Assembly (NCBI GenBank): GCA_034675265.1
Contig: JAUCDK010000001.1
Location: 30,358 to 94,357 of the forward strand
Length of the DNA: 64,000 bases
DNA from: Patescibacteria group bacterium
Lineage (GTDB): Bacteria; Patescibacteriota; Gracilibacteria; BD1-5; UBA6164
Direction: 5' to 3'
Below, one piece after another: positions 4,755-9,052 of the stretch; within the stretch, counting starts at the first letter, position 1, and each line of letters begins with the position of its first letter. Made by a program: the position numbers and the translations under genes. The notes beneath the pieces were generated by a model. The model worked only from the letters and a program-made list of their open reading frames with translations, did not search any database and was not told the DNA's origin.

Positions 4755-5201
4755 TTATTTTCCAAATTCCTTTTGAATAAACTCAATATAATCACTAGCA
4801 TCTCAAAAATTATGATATACAGAAGCATACCTTATATAAGCTACTTCATCTACTTTTTTTAATTCTTCAAGTACAAAAGCTCAAATATCACGAGAAGTAA
4901 TTTTTCTTTTATTGAGAAGTTTTTGTTCTATTTGAAACATCACATTATCAATAATTTTAATACTTACTCATCTTTTATTGAACGCTTTTAATACACTTCC
5001 ATAAAGTTTTTCTTCGTTGTATTCTTCCATTTTTCCAAGAGTTTTTTCCACCATTAAAGAGACTTTTTCATATTTTTCAAAAGTATTAAATCTGTTTCCA
5101 CAGTTTAAACATTCTCTTCTTCTTTTGATAGATTTTCCATCTTCAGTGACTCTAGAATCAAGAACTTTTGTGTCAGTATTTCAGCAGTGAGTACAGTACA
5201 T
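4755..5201 (-). CDS. nrdR: Transcriptional repressor NrdR
   Basis: 148 aa. Zn-ribbon [38 protein letters not shown] followed by an ATP-cone. Every codon of the frame checked. Confidence 0.9.
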
Positions 5202-5221: not shown

Positions 5222-5737
5222 TTAAAATGTAATTTTTTCATATTCTAAAGCTAATTTGTGCAAAGTATTATCTTCAAAATGAGCATGTTCTAAAGTTTCA
5301 TCATAAAGATTTTTCAGCATAGTATAGGTGGTTGTATAGGCATTACAAGCATTTTCTGGAATAAAAAAATTATTTGATAATTCTTTTATTTGCACCAAAT
5401 AGAAATCAAAATTTTTATGTTCTTTTTCCATTTGAGTAATCGGATTTTTGATACTTCCACAATGAAATGTTCAAATATTTTTCTTTTCATTGACTGCCTT
5501 TTGAAGTGCTTGCATCATTGGAAAAAGTATTTTTTCTTCTTTGTCTAAATGTTTCAGCATTTCATTTTGAAAAAGTATAAAGATATCTTTCATTTTTGCA
5601 AATTCTGGATGAATATCTCAATGTACATCTACTATTTTATTGAAAAGGAGATGAATTTTTGGAAGATTTTCTCTGAGAGGATTATGGTATTTTTGTATAA
5701 TAAACTCTGTTAATTCTATTAAATCTTTATTATTCAT
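5222..5737 (-). CDS. Hemerythrin-type di-iron protein, RIC (YtfE/ScdA) family, C-terminal domain only
   Basis: 171 aa. Pattern matches the YtfE hemerythrin domain: IIQKYHNPLRENLP, HLDKEEKILFPM, MEKEHKNF, PENACNAY, EHAHFEDNTL. Confidence 0.7.
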
Positions 5738-5746
5738 ATTTGATGA

Positions 5747-6442
5747 TTATATTCTAATTTTTGTGTCTTTTATGTATTTTACTGCGATATTTTTAAAGTC
5801 AAGGAGTTCATTTGAAGTGAAACTTTCTCAGTAAAATTCTTTTTCTAGGGTATTTCCAGGTCTATAATTTTGTAGGAAATATTTTTTTGCTCCTACGATT
5901 TGTAAAACTACTTTTTCAAAATTTTCTTGTTTGTGATAATTTTTTATAAGGGTAGTTCGAAATTCGTAATCAATAGAGGAATTTTTTATGATTTCAATGC
6001 TTTCTAGGTACTTTTGTTTGTCATATTTTCAAATTAAATCTTCCAAATTTTCATAATCTCATTTGATATCCATTGCGATATAATCAAGAAGTTTTTCACT
6101 GAGTAATTCTTGGAGAATTTTTGGATTTTGTCCATTCGTATCAAGTTTTACAAGAAATCACATATTTTTTATTTTTTTGCAAAATTCTTTTAGATTTTTT
6201 TGGAGAGTTGGTTCTCCTCAGCAAATCACAACTCCATCTAAGAGTCAGATTTTTGTTTTTAAGAAATTAAAAAATATTTCTTCTGGAATAAAATCTTGTA
6301 TAAATTTTATTTTTTCTGGTAAAACAAATTCTGAATTGTGGCAATATTTACATCTTAAATTGCATCAGGCTGTAAATAGTAAAGTAGCAACCTTACCTGG
6401 GTAATCAAGTAAGGTTGTTTTTTGGATTCAAGATATGAGCAT
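5747..6442 (-). CDS. nrdG: Anaerobic ribonucleoside-triphosphate reductase activating protein (radical SAM)
   Basis: 231 aa. CNLRCKYCHN cluster motif, VICGGEPTLQ, LDTNGQNP. Lies directly after the nrdD pieces. Confidence 0.9.
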
Positions 6443-6451
6443 AAGGAAGAA

Positions 6452-6622
6452 TTATTTATAATCTTGGATAAATTGAGAATTGGCAGATATGTTTTCTTTG
6501 AAATATTCTCTTGAGTAAAATTCTGATTTTTTTCAGATATTAAAGTGGCTGACTGGTCTGAAATATCACATTACTCTGGTATAGATTTCACATTTTGTTC
6601 TTTGGAGATTTGTTGTTTTCAT
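6452..6622 (-). CDS. Free-standing NrdD C-terminal glycyl-radical domain (56 aa)
   Basis: MKTTNLQRTKCEIYTRVMGYFRPVSHFNIGKKSEFYSREYF... carries the canonical RVxGY radical motif. The radical Gly is TGA 6567-6569. Separate ORF 112 nt downstream of the nrdD stop. Confidence 0.7.
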
Positions 6623-6662
6623 ATATAAATTATTAAAAATTAAAATTATTTAGATATTTGTT

Positions 6663-6737
6663 TAATAATTATTTTTACTCACTGCGGAACTTGACTTCGT
6701 CTTTGAACAGTCCTCGTTTCATAAAAAATAATTATTA
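6663..6737. repeat. Perfect 14-bp inverted repeat enclosing a GC-rich 47-nt loop, in the nrdD / mini-ORF spacer
   Basis: taataattattttt at 6663-6676 and its reverse complement at 6724-6737. The latter begins at the nrdD stop codon. Loop (mRNA sense): tatgaaacgaggactgttcaaagacgaagtcaagttccgcagtgagt. Confidence 0.8.
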
Positions 6738-8912
6738 AATTTTCATTCACTTCGCCGTATAAATTTTCCTCACTTCTGTATCAAACTTTTCTCAAACATA
6801 TCAAATTTCCTCATCACATTTCGGACAATAATCATGCTCTCCAGTAATATAACCATGTTTGGGGCAAATAGAAAAAGTTGGAGTGATTGTGATATAAGGG
6901 AGCTGATAATTTTCTAAAACTTTTTTTACCAAGGATTTACAAGCTTCACCATCACTCACTCTTTCACCAAGATAGAGATGTAAAACCGTTCCTCCAGTAT
7001 ATTTGCATTGAAGTTCATTTTGGTATTCTAAAGCTTCAAAAGCATCATCAGTAAATCATACTGGTAATTGTGATGAATTGGTATAATACGGAGCTTCCCA
7101 CGTTCCAGCTTGAATAATATTTGGAAGTTGTTTTTGGTCTTCTTTGGCAAATCTATAGGTCGTTCATTCAGCAGGAGTTGCCTCTAAATTATAAAGATTT
7201 CCTGTTTCTTCTTGAAATTTTTTGAGTTCATCTCTGATATATTCAAGAATTTCTATAGAAAAATTTTTTCAAAATTCACTCGTAATATCTTCTTTTCATC
7301 CAGTAAAATTGAGAATTGCTTCATTCATTCCATTGACTCAAATAGTAGAAAAATGATTTCTAAAACTATGTAAATATCTTTTTGTATACGGATAGAGTCA
7401 AGCATCAAGCCATTTACTGAGCTCTTTTCTTTTGAGTTCCAAAGAAGTTTTTGCTTGGTGCATCAAATGAAGAGTTCTTTTTTTGAATCATTCTTTGTCT
7501 CCCGCAAAATTATATCAAATACGAGCCATATTTAAGGTAACTACTCCAATACTTCCAGTCATTTCAGCACTTCCAAAGAGTCCATTTCCTCTCTTGAGTA
7601 ATTCTTTTAAATCCAGTTGTAATCTGCAACACATGCTTCTTACTGCTCACGGAGTATAGGCTTCCGTATTTGGAACTTTGGAAATACTTCCATCAGGATT
7701 TTTTATTTTTTTATATTGACTTCCAACAAAATTTTGAAAATAGGGAAGTCCATATTTTGCGGTCATTTCAAAAATTCCATCAACAATTGGATTATTCCAA
7801 TCAAAATCTTCGGTAATATTATAGGTTGGAATTGGAAAGGTAAATACATTTCCTTTGGCATCTCCAGCAACATATACTTCTACTAAAGCTTTATTGATGA
7901 GGTCCATTTCAGCTTGAAGTTCTCAGAATTTTTTTTCATAATATCCAGCATCAACTCCCCCTAAAAATAATGCTTTATCTTTTAAATCTTCTGGACAATT
8001 GAGATCTAAAGTGATGTTGGTAAATGGAGTTTGAGTTCACCATCTTGAGGGAACATTGAGTCAAAATATAAAATTTTGCATTTGTTGCACGACATATTTA
8101 TATGTTTTTTTATACACATAATTTTCTTTTTCTTCTGAAGATGAAAAATGTGTTTTTATTTCTCACAATTCTTTTTCTATCTCTTTTTTGTATTTGTGAA
8201 CAAAAGGAGCTAAATAAGTGTCAAAGCTTGAAAATGCTTGTGCTCCGGCCCATTCATTTTGAAGAGTTCCAAGAAAATTTATCATTTGATTTACGACTGA
8301 TTGAAGATTTTTTGGAGGAGAAGATTCAAGACGATTTGGAAGCCCATTAAATCCAAGTTCTAATAATTGTCTCAAACTCCATCCGGCACAGTATCAAGAG
8401 AACATATCTAAATCGTGTATATGATAATCGGCATTTCTATGCAAATCTCAAACTTCTTTTGGATATATATGTGAAAGCCAATAATTTGCCGTTACTTTTC
8501 CAGAAGTATTGAGAATGAGTCCTCATAAACTATACCCGGAATTTGCATTTGCATTGACTCTCCAGTCGGCTTTGCTTAAATATTCTTCCATAGTATTTCC
8601 TACTTCTACGGTTACATTTTTATTTTCTCTGGAAAGTCTTCTTTGCTCTCTATAGAGAATATATGTTTTTGCAACGGTATTATGTTGGTGTTTAATTAAA
8701 ACTTCTTCCACAATATCTTGTATAATTTCAACATCGGGAATACTTTCTCATTTGAGAATAATTTCTCTGGTGATTTCTTCTACAAGTCAATCAATTTTAG
8801 AAAAATCATCTCATCCAGCTGTGATTATGGCATTTTTTATTGCTTTTTTGATTTTTTCTCCATCAAAAGTGGCAATATTTCCATTTCTCTTTTTTACCTT
8901 AAAAATAGCCAT
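6735..8912 (-). CDS. nrdD: Anaerobic ribonucleoside-triphosphate reductase, large ORF lacking the glycyl-radical motif
   Basis: 725 aa. ATP-cone (FKVKKRNGNIATFDGEKIKKAI). Core motifs ADWRVNANANSGYSLGGL, HIHDLDMFSGYCAGWS, QNEWAGAQAFSSFDTYLAPF, SMCCRLQLD. Zn-ribbon CPKHGYITGEHDYCPKC. Ends KIYTAKGMKI*. Confidence 0.9.
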
Positions 8913-8928
8913 AATAAATAAAAAATAA

Positions 8929-8974
8929 ATAAAATATATAGTATTAGCTAAAACCTAAAATACTATATATAGTG
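8929..8974 (-). promoter_or_regulatory. Two NrdR boxes upstream of nrdD
   Basis: AT-rich 16-bp palindromes atactatatatagtgt (8959-8974) and taaaatatatagtatt (8929-8944). Centres are about 30 bp apart, 17-60 bp upstream of the nrdD ATG, as in known NrdR operators (acaCwAtATaTwGtgt). Confidence 0.6.
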
Positions 8975-9052
8975 TTTTAGGTTTGTAAAATGAGAATATA
9001 TTGACTTTTTGAGAATTGATTTTGAGTTTTGAAAAAAGGGGCTTTATGAAAA

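What the first reader, a model, noticed from the sequence alone, without database searches (positions are those of the whole stretch)
6452..6800. nrdD appears split: the large subunit lacks the glycyl-radical motif, which is encoded by a separate 56-aa ORF
The 725-aa nrdD ORF has the ATP-cone, the core CCRL region and the Zn-ribbon CPKHGYITGEHDYCPKC. It terminates as ...EVRKIYTAKGMKI* without RVxGY. A separate ORF 112 nt downstream starts MKTTNLQRTKCEIYTRVMGYFRPVSHFNIGKKSEFYSREYF, which is the canonical NrdD C-terminal radical domain with its radical Gly encoded by TGA. The tail of the large ORF (KIYTAKG) looks like a decayed copy of EIYTRVMG, which suggests a duplication or insertion event. 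The spacer contains a perfect 14-bp inverted repeat (6663-6676 / 6724-6737, starting at the nrdD stop codon). It encloses a 47-nt loop that is far more GC-rich than its surroundings, so structured RNA or a small mobile insertion is possible. A trans-acting radical domain would parallel GrcA/YfiD, the spare-part glycyl-radical protein for pyruvate formate-lyase. I am not aware of an equivalent for class III RNR.
Basis: partly seen in the sequence, partly recalled or inferred. Interest (0 to 1): 0.7.

Follow-up and report, generated by a model that had tools for sequence, protein, structure and literature searches.

The report
Two-chain anaerobic ribonucleotide reductase (split NrdD)
The enzyme that makes DNA building blocks without oxygen is encoded here as two proteins, a large catalytic chain and a separate 56-residue chain carrying the radical glycine, and this is the normal, conserved design of a whole enzyme subfamily (also in Pseudomonas aeruginosa) that the papers I could search do not describe.

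Summary
Under genetic code 25, nrdD (6735-8912, minus strand, 725 aa) ends 26 residues after its Zn-ribbon and has no glycyl-radical motif. A separate 56-aa ORF (6452-6622) carries RVMGY, with the Gly encoded by TGA. The activase gene nrdG follows 9 nt later.

This is not a lesion or a recent event:
- All 80 nearest genome loci plus the window are split the same way. They include complete Gracilibacteria genomes and standard-code bacteria such as Pseudomonas, Stutzerimonas, Oxalobacter and Campylobacterales.
- Frame offsets are spread evenly over 0, 1 and 2, and gaps run from -17 to +468 nt.
- Each small ORF has its own ATG, and 40 of 50 standard-code loci have a Shine-Dalgarno-like motif.
- The small ORF is under strong purifying selection (pN/pS 0.00-0.22).
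- P. aeruginosa and Cupriavidus necator pHG1 have the same three-gene layout, and RefSeq annotates all three genes on pHG1.
- Fused relatives exist in the same subfamily, so this is a gene fission in the linker after the Zn-ribbon.

The "decayed copy" reading is not supported. The 16-bp inverted repeat belongs to an insert of about 100 nt found only in the window and two close relatives, so it came long after the split.

I found no paper describing a split class III RNR. A June 2026 review says small spare-part proteins are known only for formate lyases.

The parts
8929..8989 (-). Control region upstream of nrdD. Two tandem NrdR-box matches lie 31 bp apart (8960-8975, 15/16; 8929-8944, 13/16). 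A sigma-70-like promoter match (TTTACA-16-TATAGT, 8989->8962) overlaps the first box.
   Evidence: palindromes I1 and I14. These are consensus matches only.
6735..8912 (-). nrdD large chain, 725 aa under code 25. It has an ATP-cone, the catalytic barrel (GYCAGW Cys at aa 173-178, finger-loop MCCRL at 427-431, TPAEG at 579-583), the Zn-ribbon C-x2-H...C-x2-C at aa 683-699, and a 26-aa tail. It has no glycyl-radical motif.
   Evidence: Pfam NRDD 1.4e-167 over profile 2-531/562. NCBIfam NF006126, 1020 bits.
6738..6815 (-). C-terminal tail of the large chain, DEEIGYVGEKFDTEVRKIYTAKGMKI. The first 21-22 residues are a conserved Gracilibacteria-specific extension under purifying selection. The last 4 codons (GMKI, 6738-6749) are a recent read-through extension.
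   Evidence: (tail pN/pS 0.15-0.33)
6648..6749 (-). Lineage-specific insert of about 100 nt in the nrdD/small-ORF junction. It holds a perfect 16-bp inverted repeat (6661-6676 / 6724-6739) around a 47-nt core at 45% GC. It is present only in the window, L001 and L002. Function unknown.
6623..6734 (-). 112-nt intergenic spacer between the stop of the large chain and the ATG of the small chain. It has no terminator-like site and no Rfam match.
6452..6622 (-). Glycyl-radical chain, 56 aa, MKTTNLQRTKCEIYTRVMGYFRPVSHFNIGKKSEFYSREYFKENISANSQFIQDYK. The radical Gly19 is TGA at 6566-6568. The invariant Cys11 is at 6590-6592.
5747..6442 (-). nrdG, the radical-SAM activase (231 aa). It starts 9 nt after the small ORF.
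   Evidence: TIGR02495 NrdG2, 199.5 bits against a cutoff of 131
5222..5737 (-). RIC/YtfE-like di-iron (hemerythrin-fold) protein, 171 aa, in the same gene string.
4755..5201 (-). nrdR, the transcriptional repressor of nrd genes (148 aa). It closes the gene string.

Best explanation
The locus encodes a class III (anaerobic, glycyl-radical) ribonucleotide reductase built from two polypeptides.

The large chain has the ATP-cone, the catalytic barrel with the finger-loop cysteines, and the Zn-ribbon. The 56-aa chain is the glycyl-radical loop, which in canonical NrdD forms the last ~40 residues of the same protein. It is translated from its own start codon, and the NrdG activase gene follows immediately.

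Shown:
- The two ORFs cover the NrdD profile and the T. maritima NrdD sequence without gap or overlap, with the break between residues 609 and 610.
- The arrangement is conserved in every close relative examined and across phyla.
- The small ORF evolves under strong purifying selection.
- Fused versions exist in the same subfamily.

Inferred:
- The small chain docks non-covalently into the barrel of the large chain.
- NrdG abstracts the H atom of Gly19.
- The glycyl radical generates the thiyl radical on the finger-loop Cys of the large chain, and catalysis then proceeds as in single-chain NrdD.
- A plausible benefit is that oxygen damage, which cleaves the backbone at the radical glycine, destroys only a ~6-kDa chain that can be replaced, and not the ~80-kDa enzyme.

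The split arose by gene fission in the surface linker after the Zn-ribbon, long before this lineage. The hairpin-bearing insert in the spacer is a later local addition.
For: - Complementary mapping. Pfam NRDD covers 2-531 (large) and 531-562 (small) of 562. The large ORF aligns to T. maritima NrdD up to residue 609, and the small ORF to residues 610-647 of 651, with its Gly on the RIVGY glycine.
- Conservation. 81 of 81 loci are split. Frame offsets 0, 1 and 2 are all common and gaps run from -17 to +468 nt. nrdG follows within 300 nt in 73 of 81. SD-like motifs precede the ATG in 40 of 50 standard-code loci. In this window 0 of 38 long ORFs have an SD-like motif, so its absence here is normal.
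- Family size. At least 383 and 829 stand-alone homologues were found in two searches. In the exhaustive search, 1,238 clusters at 50% identity reach E<=1e-3, and the best 150 are all 51-146 aa.
- Selection. pN/pS of the 34-aa radical block is 0.00-0.22, for example 10 synonymous and 0 nonsynonymous changes against L002. The catalytic core gives 0.07-0.24.
- Invariant residues. R, C, E, M, G, R, P, N, G, E, R are invariant in 48 correctly translated small chains, from Gracilibacteria to Pseudomonas.
- Fused relatives carry the same signature.
- P. aeruginosa has 675-aa NRDD + 48-aa ORF + rSAM. On C. necator pHG1, RefSeq annotates all three genes. According to PMC2864759, citing Siedow et al. 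1999, that locus is required for full denitrification.
- AF2 places the Gly at the tip of a beta-hairpin.
Against: - There is no biochemical or structural evidence that the two chains assemble.
- The small chain alone is modelled with low confidence (pLDDT 62-67), and Foldseek finds nothing.
- The "replaceable fuse" advantage is pure inference.
- The literature check covers only open-access texts. Two key papers, Siedow 1999 and Wei 2014, were not available, so the architecture may have been noted before.
- The fused relatives seen are C-terminal fragments, not full-length proteins.
Confidence: 0.82

Rival explanations
1. Recoding or splicing joins the two ORFs into one polypeptide, through a programmed frameshift, translational bypass of the hairpin, an intron, or protein trans-splicing.
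For: A hairpin starts at the stop codon of the large ORF. The two ORFs are in different frames, offset by +1 in the window.
Against: - Across 81 loci the offset is 0, 1 or 2 with similar frequency. Gaps range from a 17-nt overlap to 468 nt, and in-frame cases have intervening stops.
- The small ORFs have their own ATG, and SD-like motifs in standard-code bacteria.
- The hairpin is absent from nearly all relatives.
- There is no intron or other Rfam match.
- The large-chain tails (4-43 aa) and the stretches before the conserved motif in the small chains (about 5-30 aa in most loci) seem too short for split-intein halves. That last point is my inference from general knowledge of intein sizes.
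Confidence: 0.03
2. A recent lesion: a pseudogene, an assembly or sequencing artefact, or a lineage-specific duplication or insertion that broke nrdD.
For: An insert of about 100 nt with a perfect inverted repeat lies exactly at the junction. The tail ...KIYTAKG superficially resembles EIYTRVMG.
Against: - The same split is present in complete genomes, cultured isolates and 162 plasmids.
- An independent assembly (L001) is 97-99% identical, insert included.
- Both parts are under purifying selection.
- The insert is missing in L003, L020, L025 and L028, which are nevertheless split.
- GMKI is a 4-codon read-through extension, not a relic.
Confidence: 0.02
3. A GrcA-like spare part in the strict sense: the small protein repairs an oxygen-cleaved full-length NrdD encoded elsewhere in the genome, and the large ORF here is not its normal partner.
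For: There is a precedent in YfiD/GrcA for pyruvate formate-lyase. The small protein is an autonomous radical-loop module.
Against: - The adjacent large chain lacks any radical domain and so needs a partner.
- The order large -> small -> nrdG is conserved in 73 of 81 loci.
- The window holds only one radical-domain motif.
- The small chain matches Pfam NRDD, not Gly_radical.
- Whole genomes could not be checked for a second, fused nrdD.
Confidence: 0.05
4. The hairpin-bearing insert is a functional RNA or regulatory element, for example one that sets the translation ratio of the two chains or acts as a processing site, or it is a miniature mobile element.
For: - The insert is 90.7% identical between the window and L002, while flanking coding sequence is 76-85% identical.
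- It has a perfect 16-bp inverted repeat.
- Its core is richer in GC than the surroundings.
Against: - It is present in only three closely related loci.
- No second copy exists in the 64-kb window, and there is no exact match in the metagenome collection.
- No Rfam family matches.
- Its folding energy is no better than shuffled sequence, z = 0.11.
- No terminator-like site was found.
- With three sequences, covariation cannot be tested.
Confidence: 0.25

Closest known systems
Canonical single-chain class III RNR (NrdD of phage T4, E. coli, Thermotoga maritima, Prevotella copri) with its NrdG activase
   Same: It has the same domains in the same order: ATP-cone, barrel with finger-loop Cys, Zn-ribbon, glycyl-radical loop RVxGY, and an adjacent radical-SAM activase.
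   Different: The polypeptide is broken between the Zn-ribbon and the radical loop, equivalent to residues 609/610 of T. maritima NrdD. The large chain carries an extra tail. The Zn-ribbon reads C-x2-H...C-x2-C.
GrcA/YfiD (and phage T4 Y06I), the autonomous glycyl-radical 'spare part' of pyruvate formate-lyase
   Same: A small stand-alone protein carries the radical glycine loop, presumably receives its radical from the cognate activase, and supplies it in trans to a large catalytic chain.
   Different: - GrcA duplicates the C-terminus of an otherwise complete PFL and acts after oxygen cleavage. Here the large chain has no radical domain at all, so the small chain is obligatory.
- It is a different family: Pfam NRDD, not Gly_radical.
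- It is 49 to about 75 aa long, whereas GrcA is about 14 kDa.
- It is encoded between the catalytic chain and the activase.
Split class II RNR NrdJa/NrdJb of Pseudomonas aeruginosa
   Same: An RNR catalytic subunit is encoded as two consecutive genes whose products must assemble, in the same organism group.
   Different: It is a different class and a different break point. [quoted passage not shown] That split is described in the literature, whereas I found no description of the class III split.
Fused NrdDs of the same subfamily (NCBIfam NF006126/PRK08270 type; fragments named from Halorhodospira, Dermabacteraceae, Microbacterium, Propionibacteriaceae and Hadarchaeales)
   Same: They are 52-69% identical across the junction-spanning query and share the same ITITPTFSICP.HGY..GEH..CP.C ... 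CE[VI][WY]TRVMGY.RPV signature.
   Different: They are a single ORF, with a linker of roughly 4-24 aa in place of the stop, spacer and start.

Membership tests
Class III ribonucleotide reductase (NrdD) | Sequence membership of the catalytic chain (Pfam PF13597 NRDD; NCBIfam NrdD models) | tested here: met
   PF13597 at 1.4e-167. NF006126 at 1020 bits (cutoff 548). TIGR02487 at 448 bits (cutoff 326).
Class III ribonucleotide reductase (NrdD) | C-terminal glycyl-radical motif RVxGY on the same polypeptide as the barrel | tested here: not met
   The large ORF stops 26 aa after the Zn-ribbon without the motif. The motif RVMGY lies on the separate 56-aa ORF. The feature is therefore supplied in trans.
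Class III ribonucleotide reductase (NrdD) | Finger-loop cysteine for the thiyl radical, and a Zn-binding ribbon before the radical loop | tested here: met
   MCCRL at aa 427-431. CPKH...CPKC at aa 683-699, with His in place of the second Cys. Aligned to solved NrdDs.
Class III ribonucleotide reductase (NrdD) | Cognate radical-SAM activase NrdG encoded alongside | tested here: met
   TIGR02495 NrdG2 at 199.5 bits (cutoff 131), 9 nt downstream of the small ORF. nrdG lies within 300 nt in 73 of 81 loci.
Class III ribonucleotide reductase (NrdD) | Glycyl radical formation and NTP reduction | not testable with these tools
   This needs EPR and activity assays with both chains plus NrdG.
Split (two-chain) NrdD subfamily, as annotated in RefSeq (large 'ribonucleoside triphosphate reductase' + short 'nrdD' + activase) | Gene order large chain -> short radical-loop ORF -> nrdG, with the short ORF matching only the last ~35 positions of NrdD models | tested here: met
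   The window matches the layout of C. necator pHG1, P. aeruginosa and all 80 genome loci. The small ORF matches NF006126 positions 649-683 of 684.
GrcA/YfiD autonomous glycyl radical cofactor family | Sequence membership in the PFL-type glycine-radical domain family (Pfam Gly_radical, PF01228, recalled from memory; InterPro IPR011140 as cited in PMC8683613) | tested here: not met
   A Pfam scan of the small ORF returns only PF13597 NRDD.
GrcA/YfiD autonomous glycyl radical cofactor family | Acts as a spare part for a partner enzyme that has its own radical domain | tested here: not met
   The partner large chain has no radical domain in any of the 81 loci.
Group I/II intron or other described structured RNA in the spacer | Match to an Rfam covariance model | tested here: not met
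   Nothing better than E = 1.1 in 6300-7000, and those hits are snoRNA-type noise outside the spacer core.
Miniature inverted-repeat mobile element | Terminal inverted repeats plus multiple copies in the genome | tested here: inconclusive
   The inverted repeats are present, but there is only one copy in 64 kb and no exact match in metagenome contigs. The whole genome was not available.

The most novel reading that the evidence does not exclude
A large, phylum-spanning subfamily of class III ribonucleotide reductases may be obligate two-chain glycyl-radical enzymes. It includes those of Gracilibacteria, Pseudomonas aeruginosa, Cupriavidus necator, Ralstonia and Bradyrhizobium.

In these enzymes the radical cofactor would sit on a dissociable ~5-8-kDa protein. 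That protein could serve as a replaceable 'fuse': after oxygen exposure only the small chain is cleaved and exchanged. It would be the first glycyl-radical enzyme with its radical domain on a separate, obligatory polypeptide. It might also explain why this class III type has been studied genetically but, to my knowledge, not reconstituted from Pseudomonas. In the papers I could search, nobody has described it.
Probability: 0.4. Interest if true: 0.78.

Novelty: new variant of a known kind. Interest (0 to 1): 0.6.

Why it matters
Glycyl-radical enzymes are taught as single chains whose C-terminal loop carries the radical. The only recognised exception is the GrcA spare part of pyruvate formate-lyase, and a June 2026 review says so explicitly.

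Here the radical loop of an essential anaerobic enzyme is a separate gene product in thousands of genomes, including a major pathogen in which class III RNR contributes to anaerobic growth and biofilm formation (PMC4860495).

If the two-chain reading is right:
- It gives a natural system for studying how an activase recognises a free radical-loop peptide and how that loop docks into the barrel.
- It makes the idea of cheap repair after oxygen damage directly testable.
- It warns that expressing "nrdD + nrdG" without the small ORF would give an inactive enzyme.
- It affects annotation. The P. aeruginosa and C. metallidurans papers I read describe the operon as nrdDG. Code-4 gene calling turns the radical Gly into Trp in public protein sets.

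For this particular window, the feature is an ordinary member of that family.

Tried and rejected
1. Table-11 ORF calling fragments every gene here. I switched to code 25.
2. Rfam at E<=10 over 6300-7000 gave no relevant family.
3. Folding of 6610-6760 was no more stable than shuffles, z = 0.11.
4. I searched for other copies of the insert core. There is one copy in the window and none in metagenome contigs, so mobility is unsupported.
6. AF2 of the small chain alone gave low confidence. The first run used a database sequence with Trp at the radical position, mistranslated under code 4, so I repeated it with a correct one. Foldseek against the PDB gave no meaningful hit.
7. Seven full-text literature searches and several targeted reads found no description of a split NrdD. 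Wei et al. 2014 and Siedow et al. 1999 are not held.
8. The "tail is a decayed radical motif" idea was rejected from the spacer alignment and the tail comparison.
9. The terminator scan of the spacer found nothing.
Full report
**Observation**

Read with table 11, the region is a litter of short ORFs. Read with code 25 (TGA = Gly), it resolves into a clean minus-strand gene string:

| Feature | Coordinates (minus strand) | Size |
|---|---|---|
| nrdD large chain | 6735-8912 | 725 aa |
| spacer | 6623-6734 | 112 nt |
| small ORF | 6452-6622 | 56 aa |
| nrdG | 5747-6442 | 231 aa |
| RIC-like di-iron protein | 5222-5737 | 171 aa |
| nrdR | 4755-5201 | 148 aa |

- The large ORF has the ATP-cone, the finger-loop MCCRL and the Zn-ribbon CPKHGYITGEHDYCPKC. 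It stops 26 residues later, without a radical motif.
- The small ORF reads MKTTNLQRTKCEIYTRVMGYFRPV..., and its Gly19 is a TGA codon at 6566-6568.
- Pfam's NRDD profile is covered at positions 2-531 by the large ORF and at 531-562 by the small one.
- The inverted repeat is real and is 16 bp long (6661-6676 / 6724-6739), around 47 nt at 45% GC in a 27% GC window.

**Is the split a local accident?**

No. I fetched the 80 genome loci most similar to the C-terminal part of the large chain and classified each, choosing the genetic code per locus. All 80 loci plus the window are split, and none is fused.
- The set includes complete Gracilibacteria genomes (CP042461, CP017714) and Absconditabacteria.
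- Unexpectedly, it also includes standard-code bacteria: Pseudomonas, Stutzerimonas, Oxalobacter, Campylobacterales, Verrucomicrobiota, Algoriphagus, Devosia and Kistimonas.
- The frame offset between the two ORFs is 0, 1 or 2 in similar numbers (31, 22 and 28 loci).
- The gap ranges from a 17-nt overlap to 468 nt, with a median near 38 nt.
- nrdG follows within 300 nt in 73 of 81 loci.
- In 40 of 50 standard-code loci an AAGGAG-like motif precedes the small ORF's ATG.
- In the code-25 loci none does. None of the 38 long ORFs in this window has one either, so that is the local norm.

This pattern fits independent translation of two proteins. It does not fit frameshifting, bypassing or splicing, which would each need a fixed geometry.

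**Size and depth of the small-protein family**

- Homology searches with the window's small ORF and with a Pseudomonas one returned at least 383 and 829 proteins. All 120 listed in each search are short, 48-89 aa.
- An exhaustive search of 1.84 billion cluster representatives found 1,238 clusters at E<=1e-3. The best 150 are all 51-146 aa.
- In 48 correctly translated sequences, from Gracilibacteria to Pseudomonas, the residues R, C, E, M, G, R, P, N, G, E, R of the motif R..CE...RVMGY.RPV..FN.GK.SE...R are invariant.
- Between the window and 13 Gracilibacteria relatives, the 34-codon radical block has pN/pS of 0.00-0.22. Against L002 it has 10 synonymous and 0 nonsynonymous changes. That is at least as constrained as the last 150 codons of the catalytic core (0.07-0.24).

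The small ORF is therefore a real, selected protein.

**Where the break lies, and whether fused forms exist**

- By sequence, the large ORF aligns to Thermotoga maritima NrdD (4COI) up to residue 609.
- The small ORF aligns to residues 610-647 of 651, with its glycine on the RIVGY glycine.
- The break is therefore in the short linker between the last Zn-ribbon cysteine and the radical hairpin.
- A junction-spanning chimeric query pulled out contiguous versions that match both halves at 52-69% identity. They are named from Halorhodospira, Dermabacteraceae, Microbacterium, Propionibacteriaceae, Actinomyces and Hadarchaeales.
- One of them (P0295) has the linker CPHCDDQLRAAGHSEPLPEEKRTRCEVW. It reads like a split form's tail plus small-chain N-terminus with no stop between them.

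The split is thus a gene fission, or in places a re-fusion, inside one subfamily. The best NCBIfam model for the large chain is NF006126, at 1020 bits.

**Well-studied organisms have it**

- In P. aeruginosa (GCA_002136435.1), a 675-aa ATP-cone + NRDD protein is followed after 43 nt by a 48-aa NRDD-C-terminal ORF. That ORF overlaps a 232-aa radical-SAM gene by 4 nt.
- On the C. necator H16 megaplasmid pHG1, RefSeq annotates "ribonucleoside triphosphate reductase" (2,031 nt), a 201-nt gene labelled nrdD, and the activase.
- 162 plasmid records, mostly Ralstonia, Bradyrhizobium, Cupriavidus and Paracoccus, carry a homologue of the small ORF. In the listed records that annotate the site it is labelled nrdD, next to the activase gene.
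- The C. metallidurans genome paper lists NrdDG as Rmet_5137 and Rmet_5139, skipping the tag between. Citing Siedow et al. 1999, it states that the pHG1 locus is needed for full denitrification. That is in vivo evidence that a split-type locus works.

An alignment of the junctions of the closest relatives shows three things.
- In L002, L003, L020, L025 and L028 the large ORF stops within two codons of ...YTA (…YTAR, …YTAKK or …YTAK). In L003, L020, L025 and L028 the spacer is only 24-26 nt.
- In the window and L001 the position corresponding to that stop is TGA (Gly). Translation runs four more codons (GMKI) to a TAA that is part of the inverted repeat.
- The window, L001 and L002 share an insert of about 100 nt (6648-6749) containing the inverted repeat and the GC-richer core.

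So the "AKGM resembles RVMG" similarity involves residues that did not exist a short evolutionary time ago. The conserved Gracilibacteria tail motif is DEEIGY.G.KFD.E.R..[YH]T[AS]D, and proteobacterial tails (DEALL.KQQ...) show nothing similar. The tail is itself under purifying selection (pN/pS 0.15-0.33), so it probably has a role. My guess is that it holds the small chain.

**The insert**

- It has no Rfam match.
- It does not fold better than shuffled sequence.
- It has no terminator-like site.
- It is single-copy in the window, with no exact match in the metagenome collection.
- It is, however, better conserved between the window and L002 (90.7%) than the flanking coding sequence (76-85%).
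- Its role is unexplained. It is irrelevant to the origin of the split.

**Mechanism**

Shown: domain complementarity, conservation, selection, independent translation signals and operon linkage with the activase.

Inferred from established knowledge of NrdD and other glycyl-radical enzymes:
- The small chain inserts its beta-hairpin into the barrel of the large chain. AF2 puts the Gly at the hairpin tip, although with pLDDT of only 62-67.
- NrdG makes the glycyl radical.
- The radical passes to the finger-loop cysteine.

Speculative: because oxygen cleaves the backbone at the radical glycine, a separate small chain would confine the damage to a cheap, replaceable part. That would suit denitrifiers and other organisms living at oxic-anoxic boundaries.

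**Comparison with what is known**

- The enzyme works like a canonical NrdD. By sequence it is a member of that family, except that one defining feature, the radical motif on the same chain, is supplied in trans.
- It works in part like GrcA/YfiD, but it is not a member of that family (Pfam NRDD only). It is also not a spare part, since its partner has no radical domain of its own.
- It parallels the split class II NrdJa/b of Pseudomonas, which is described in the literature.
- For the class III split I found no description in seven full-text searches and reads of the main RNR-evolution and GRE reviews.

Caveats: only open-access texts were searchable, two key older papers were unavailable, and RefSeq already annotates both genes. 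The architecture is therefore visible in databases even if it is not discussed.

**Verdict**

It is partly wrong: the split is not a local duplication, insertion or intron, and the small protein is not a spare part.
- For this window the feature is an ordinary member of a large family.
- The family itself looks like an under-recognised variant of class III RNR and deserves a direct biochemical test.
- Interest is 0.6.

Noticed in passing
window 8929-8989 (minus strand): Two tandem NrdR-box matches, ACACTATATATAGTAT (15/16) and ATACTATATATTTTAT (13/16), lie 31 bp apart just upstream of nrdD. The first overlaps the best sigma-70-like promoter match. nrdR itself closes the same gene string (4755-5201).
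   Followed up: partly
window 5222-5737 (minus strand): A 171-aa hemerythrin-fold protein lies between nrdG and nrdR. It matches only the di-iron C-terminal part of RIC/YtfE Fe-S-cluster repair proteins (TIGR03652, profile 65-213 of 216, below the cutoff). It could protect or repair the NrdG 4Fe-4S cluster.
   Followed up: partly
database proteins P0001, P0003, P0010, P0013, P0014 and others (homologues of window 6452-6622): 16 of 80 public small-chain sequences read RVMWY, and 29 of 80 read FN.WKK. TGA was translated as Trp (code 4) instead of Gly (code 25), so the essential radical glycine is mistranslated in public protein sets. The invariant glycine encoded by TGA is a neat internal confirmation of code 25.
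   Followed up: yes
window 6816-6866 and 6590-6592; all loci L001-L080: The Zn-ribbon of this subfamily is C-x2-H...C-x2-C, with His replacing the second Cys, in all 81 loci. The small chain has an invariant Cys 8 residues before the radical Gly, which is also present in the bacterial fused forms. It might be an inter-chain metal ligand or a redox residue.
   Followed up: no
L015, L017, L022, L027, L039, L060, L040, L051, L077 (small ORFs); P0267: Many small chains, though not the window's, end in Cys-rich tails: ..VACGC, ..VGCGCAA, ..SCPCGM, ..CYSCQEC, ..GGGCCGDCGDDCDE and ..GCCGR. These recall the C-terminal redox-shuttle cysteines of class I/II RNRs.
   Followed up: no
window 6677-6723 (minus strand): The core of the insert contains a 15-codon mini-ORF (ATG...TAA, MKRGLFKDEVKFRSE). 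The two substitutions seen among the window, L001 and L002 are both nonsynonymous, which gives no support for coding. The insert is better conserved than its flanks (90.7% against 76-85% versus L002).
   Followed up: partly
whole window: None of the 38 ORFs of at least 200 aa (code 25) has a Shine-Dalgarno-like motif within 18 nt upstream of its first ATG. In nrdD, 22 of the 59 Gly codons are TGA.
   Followed up: partly
P0301 (Microbacterium arborescens, 125 aa, on a 29-kb contig): This protein has a fused-type C-terminal piece (last barrel strands + Zn-ribbon + radical loop), starts with Met and sits inside a long contig. It could reflect a different break point further upstream, or a frameshifted gene.
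   Followed up: no
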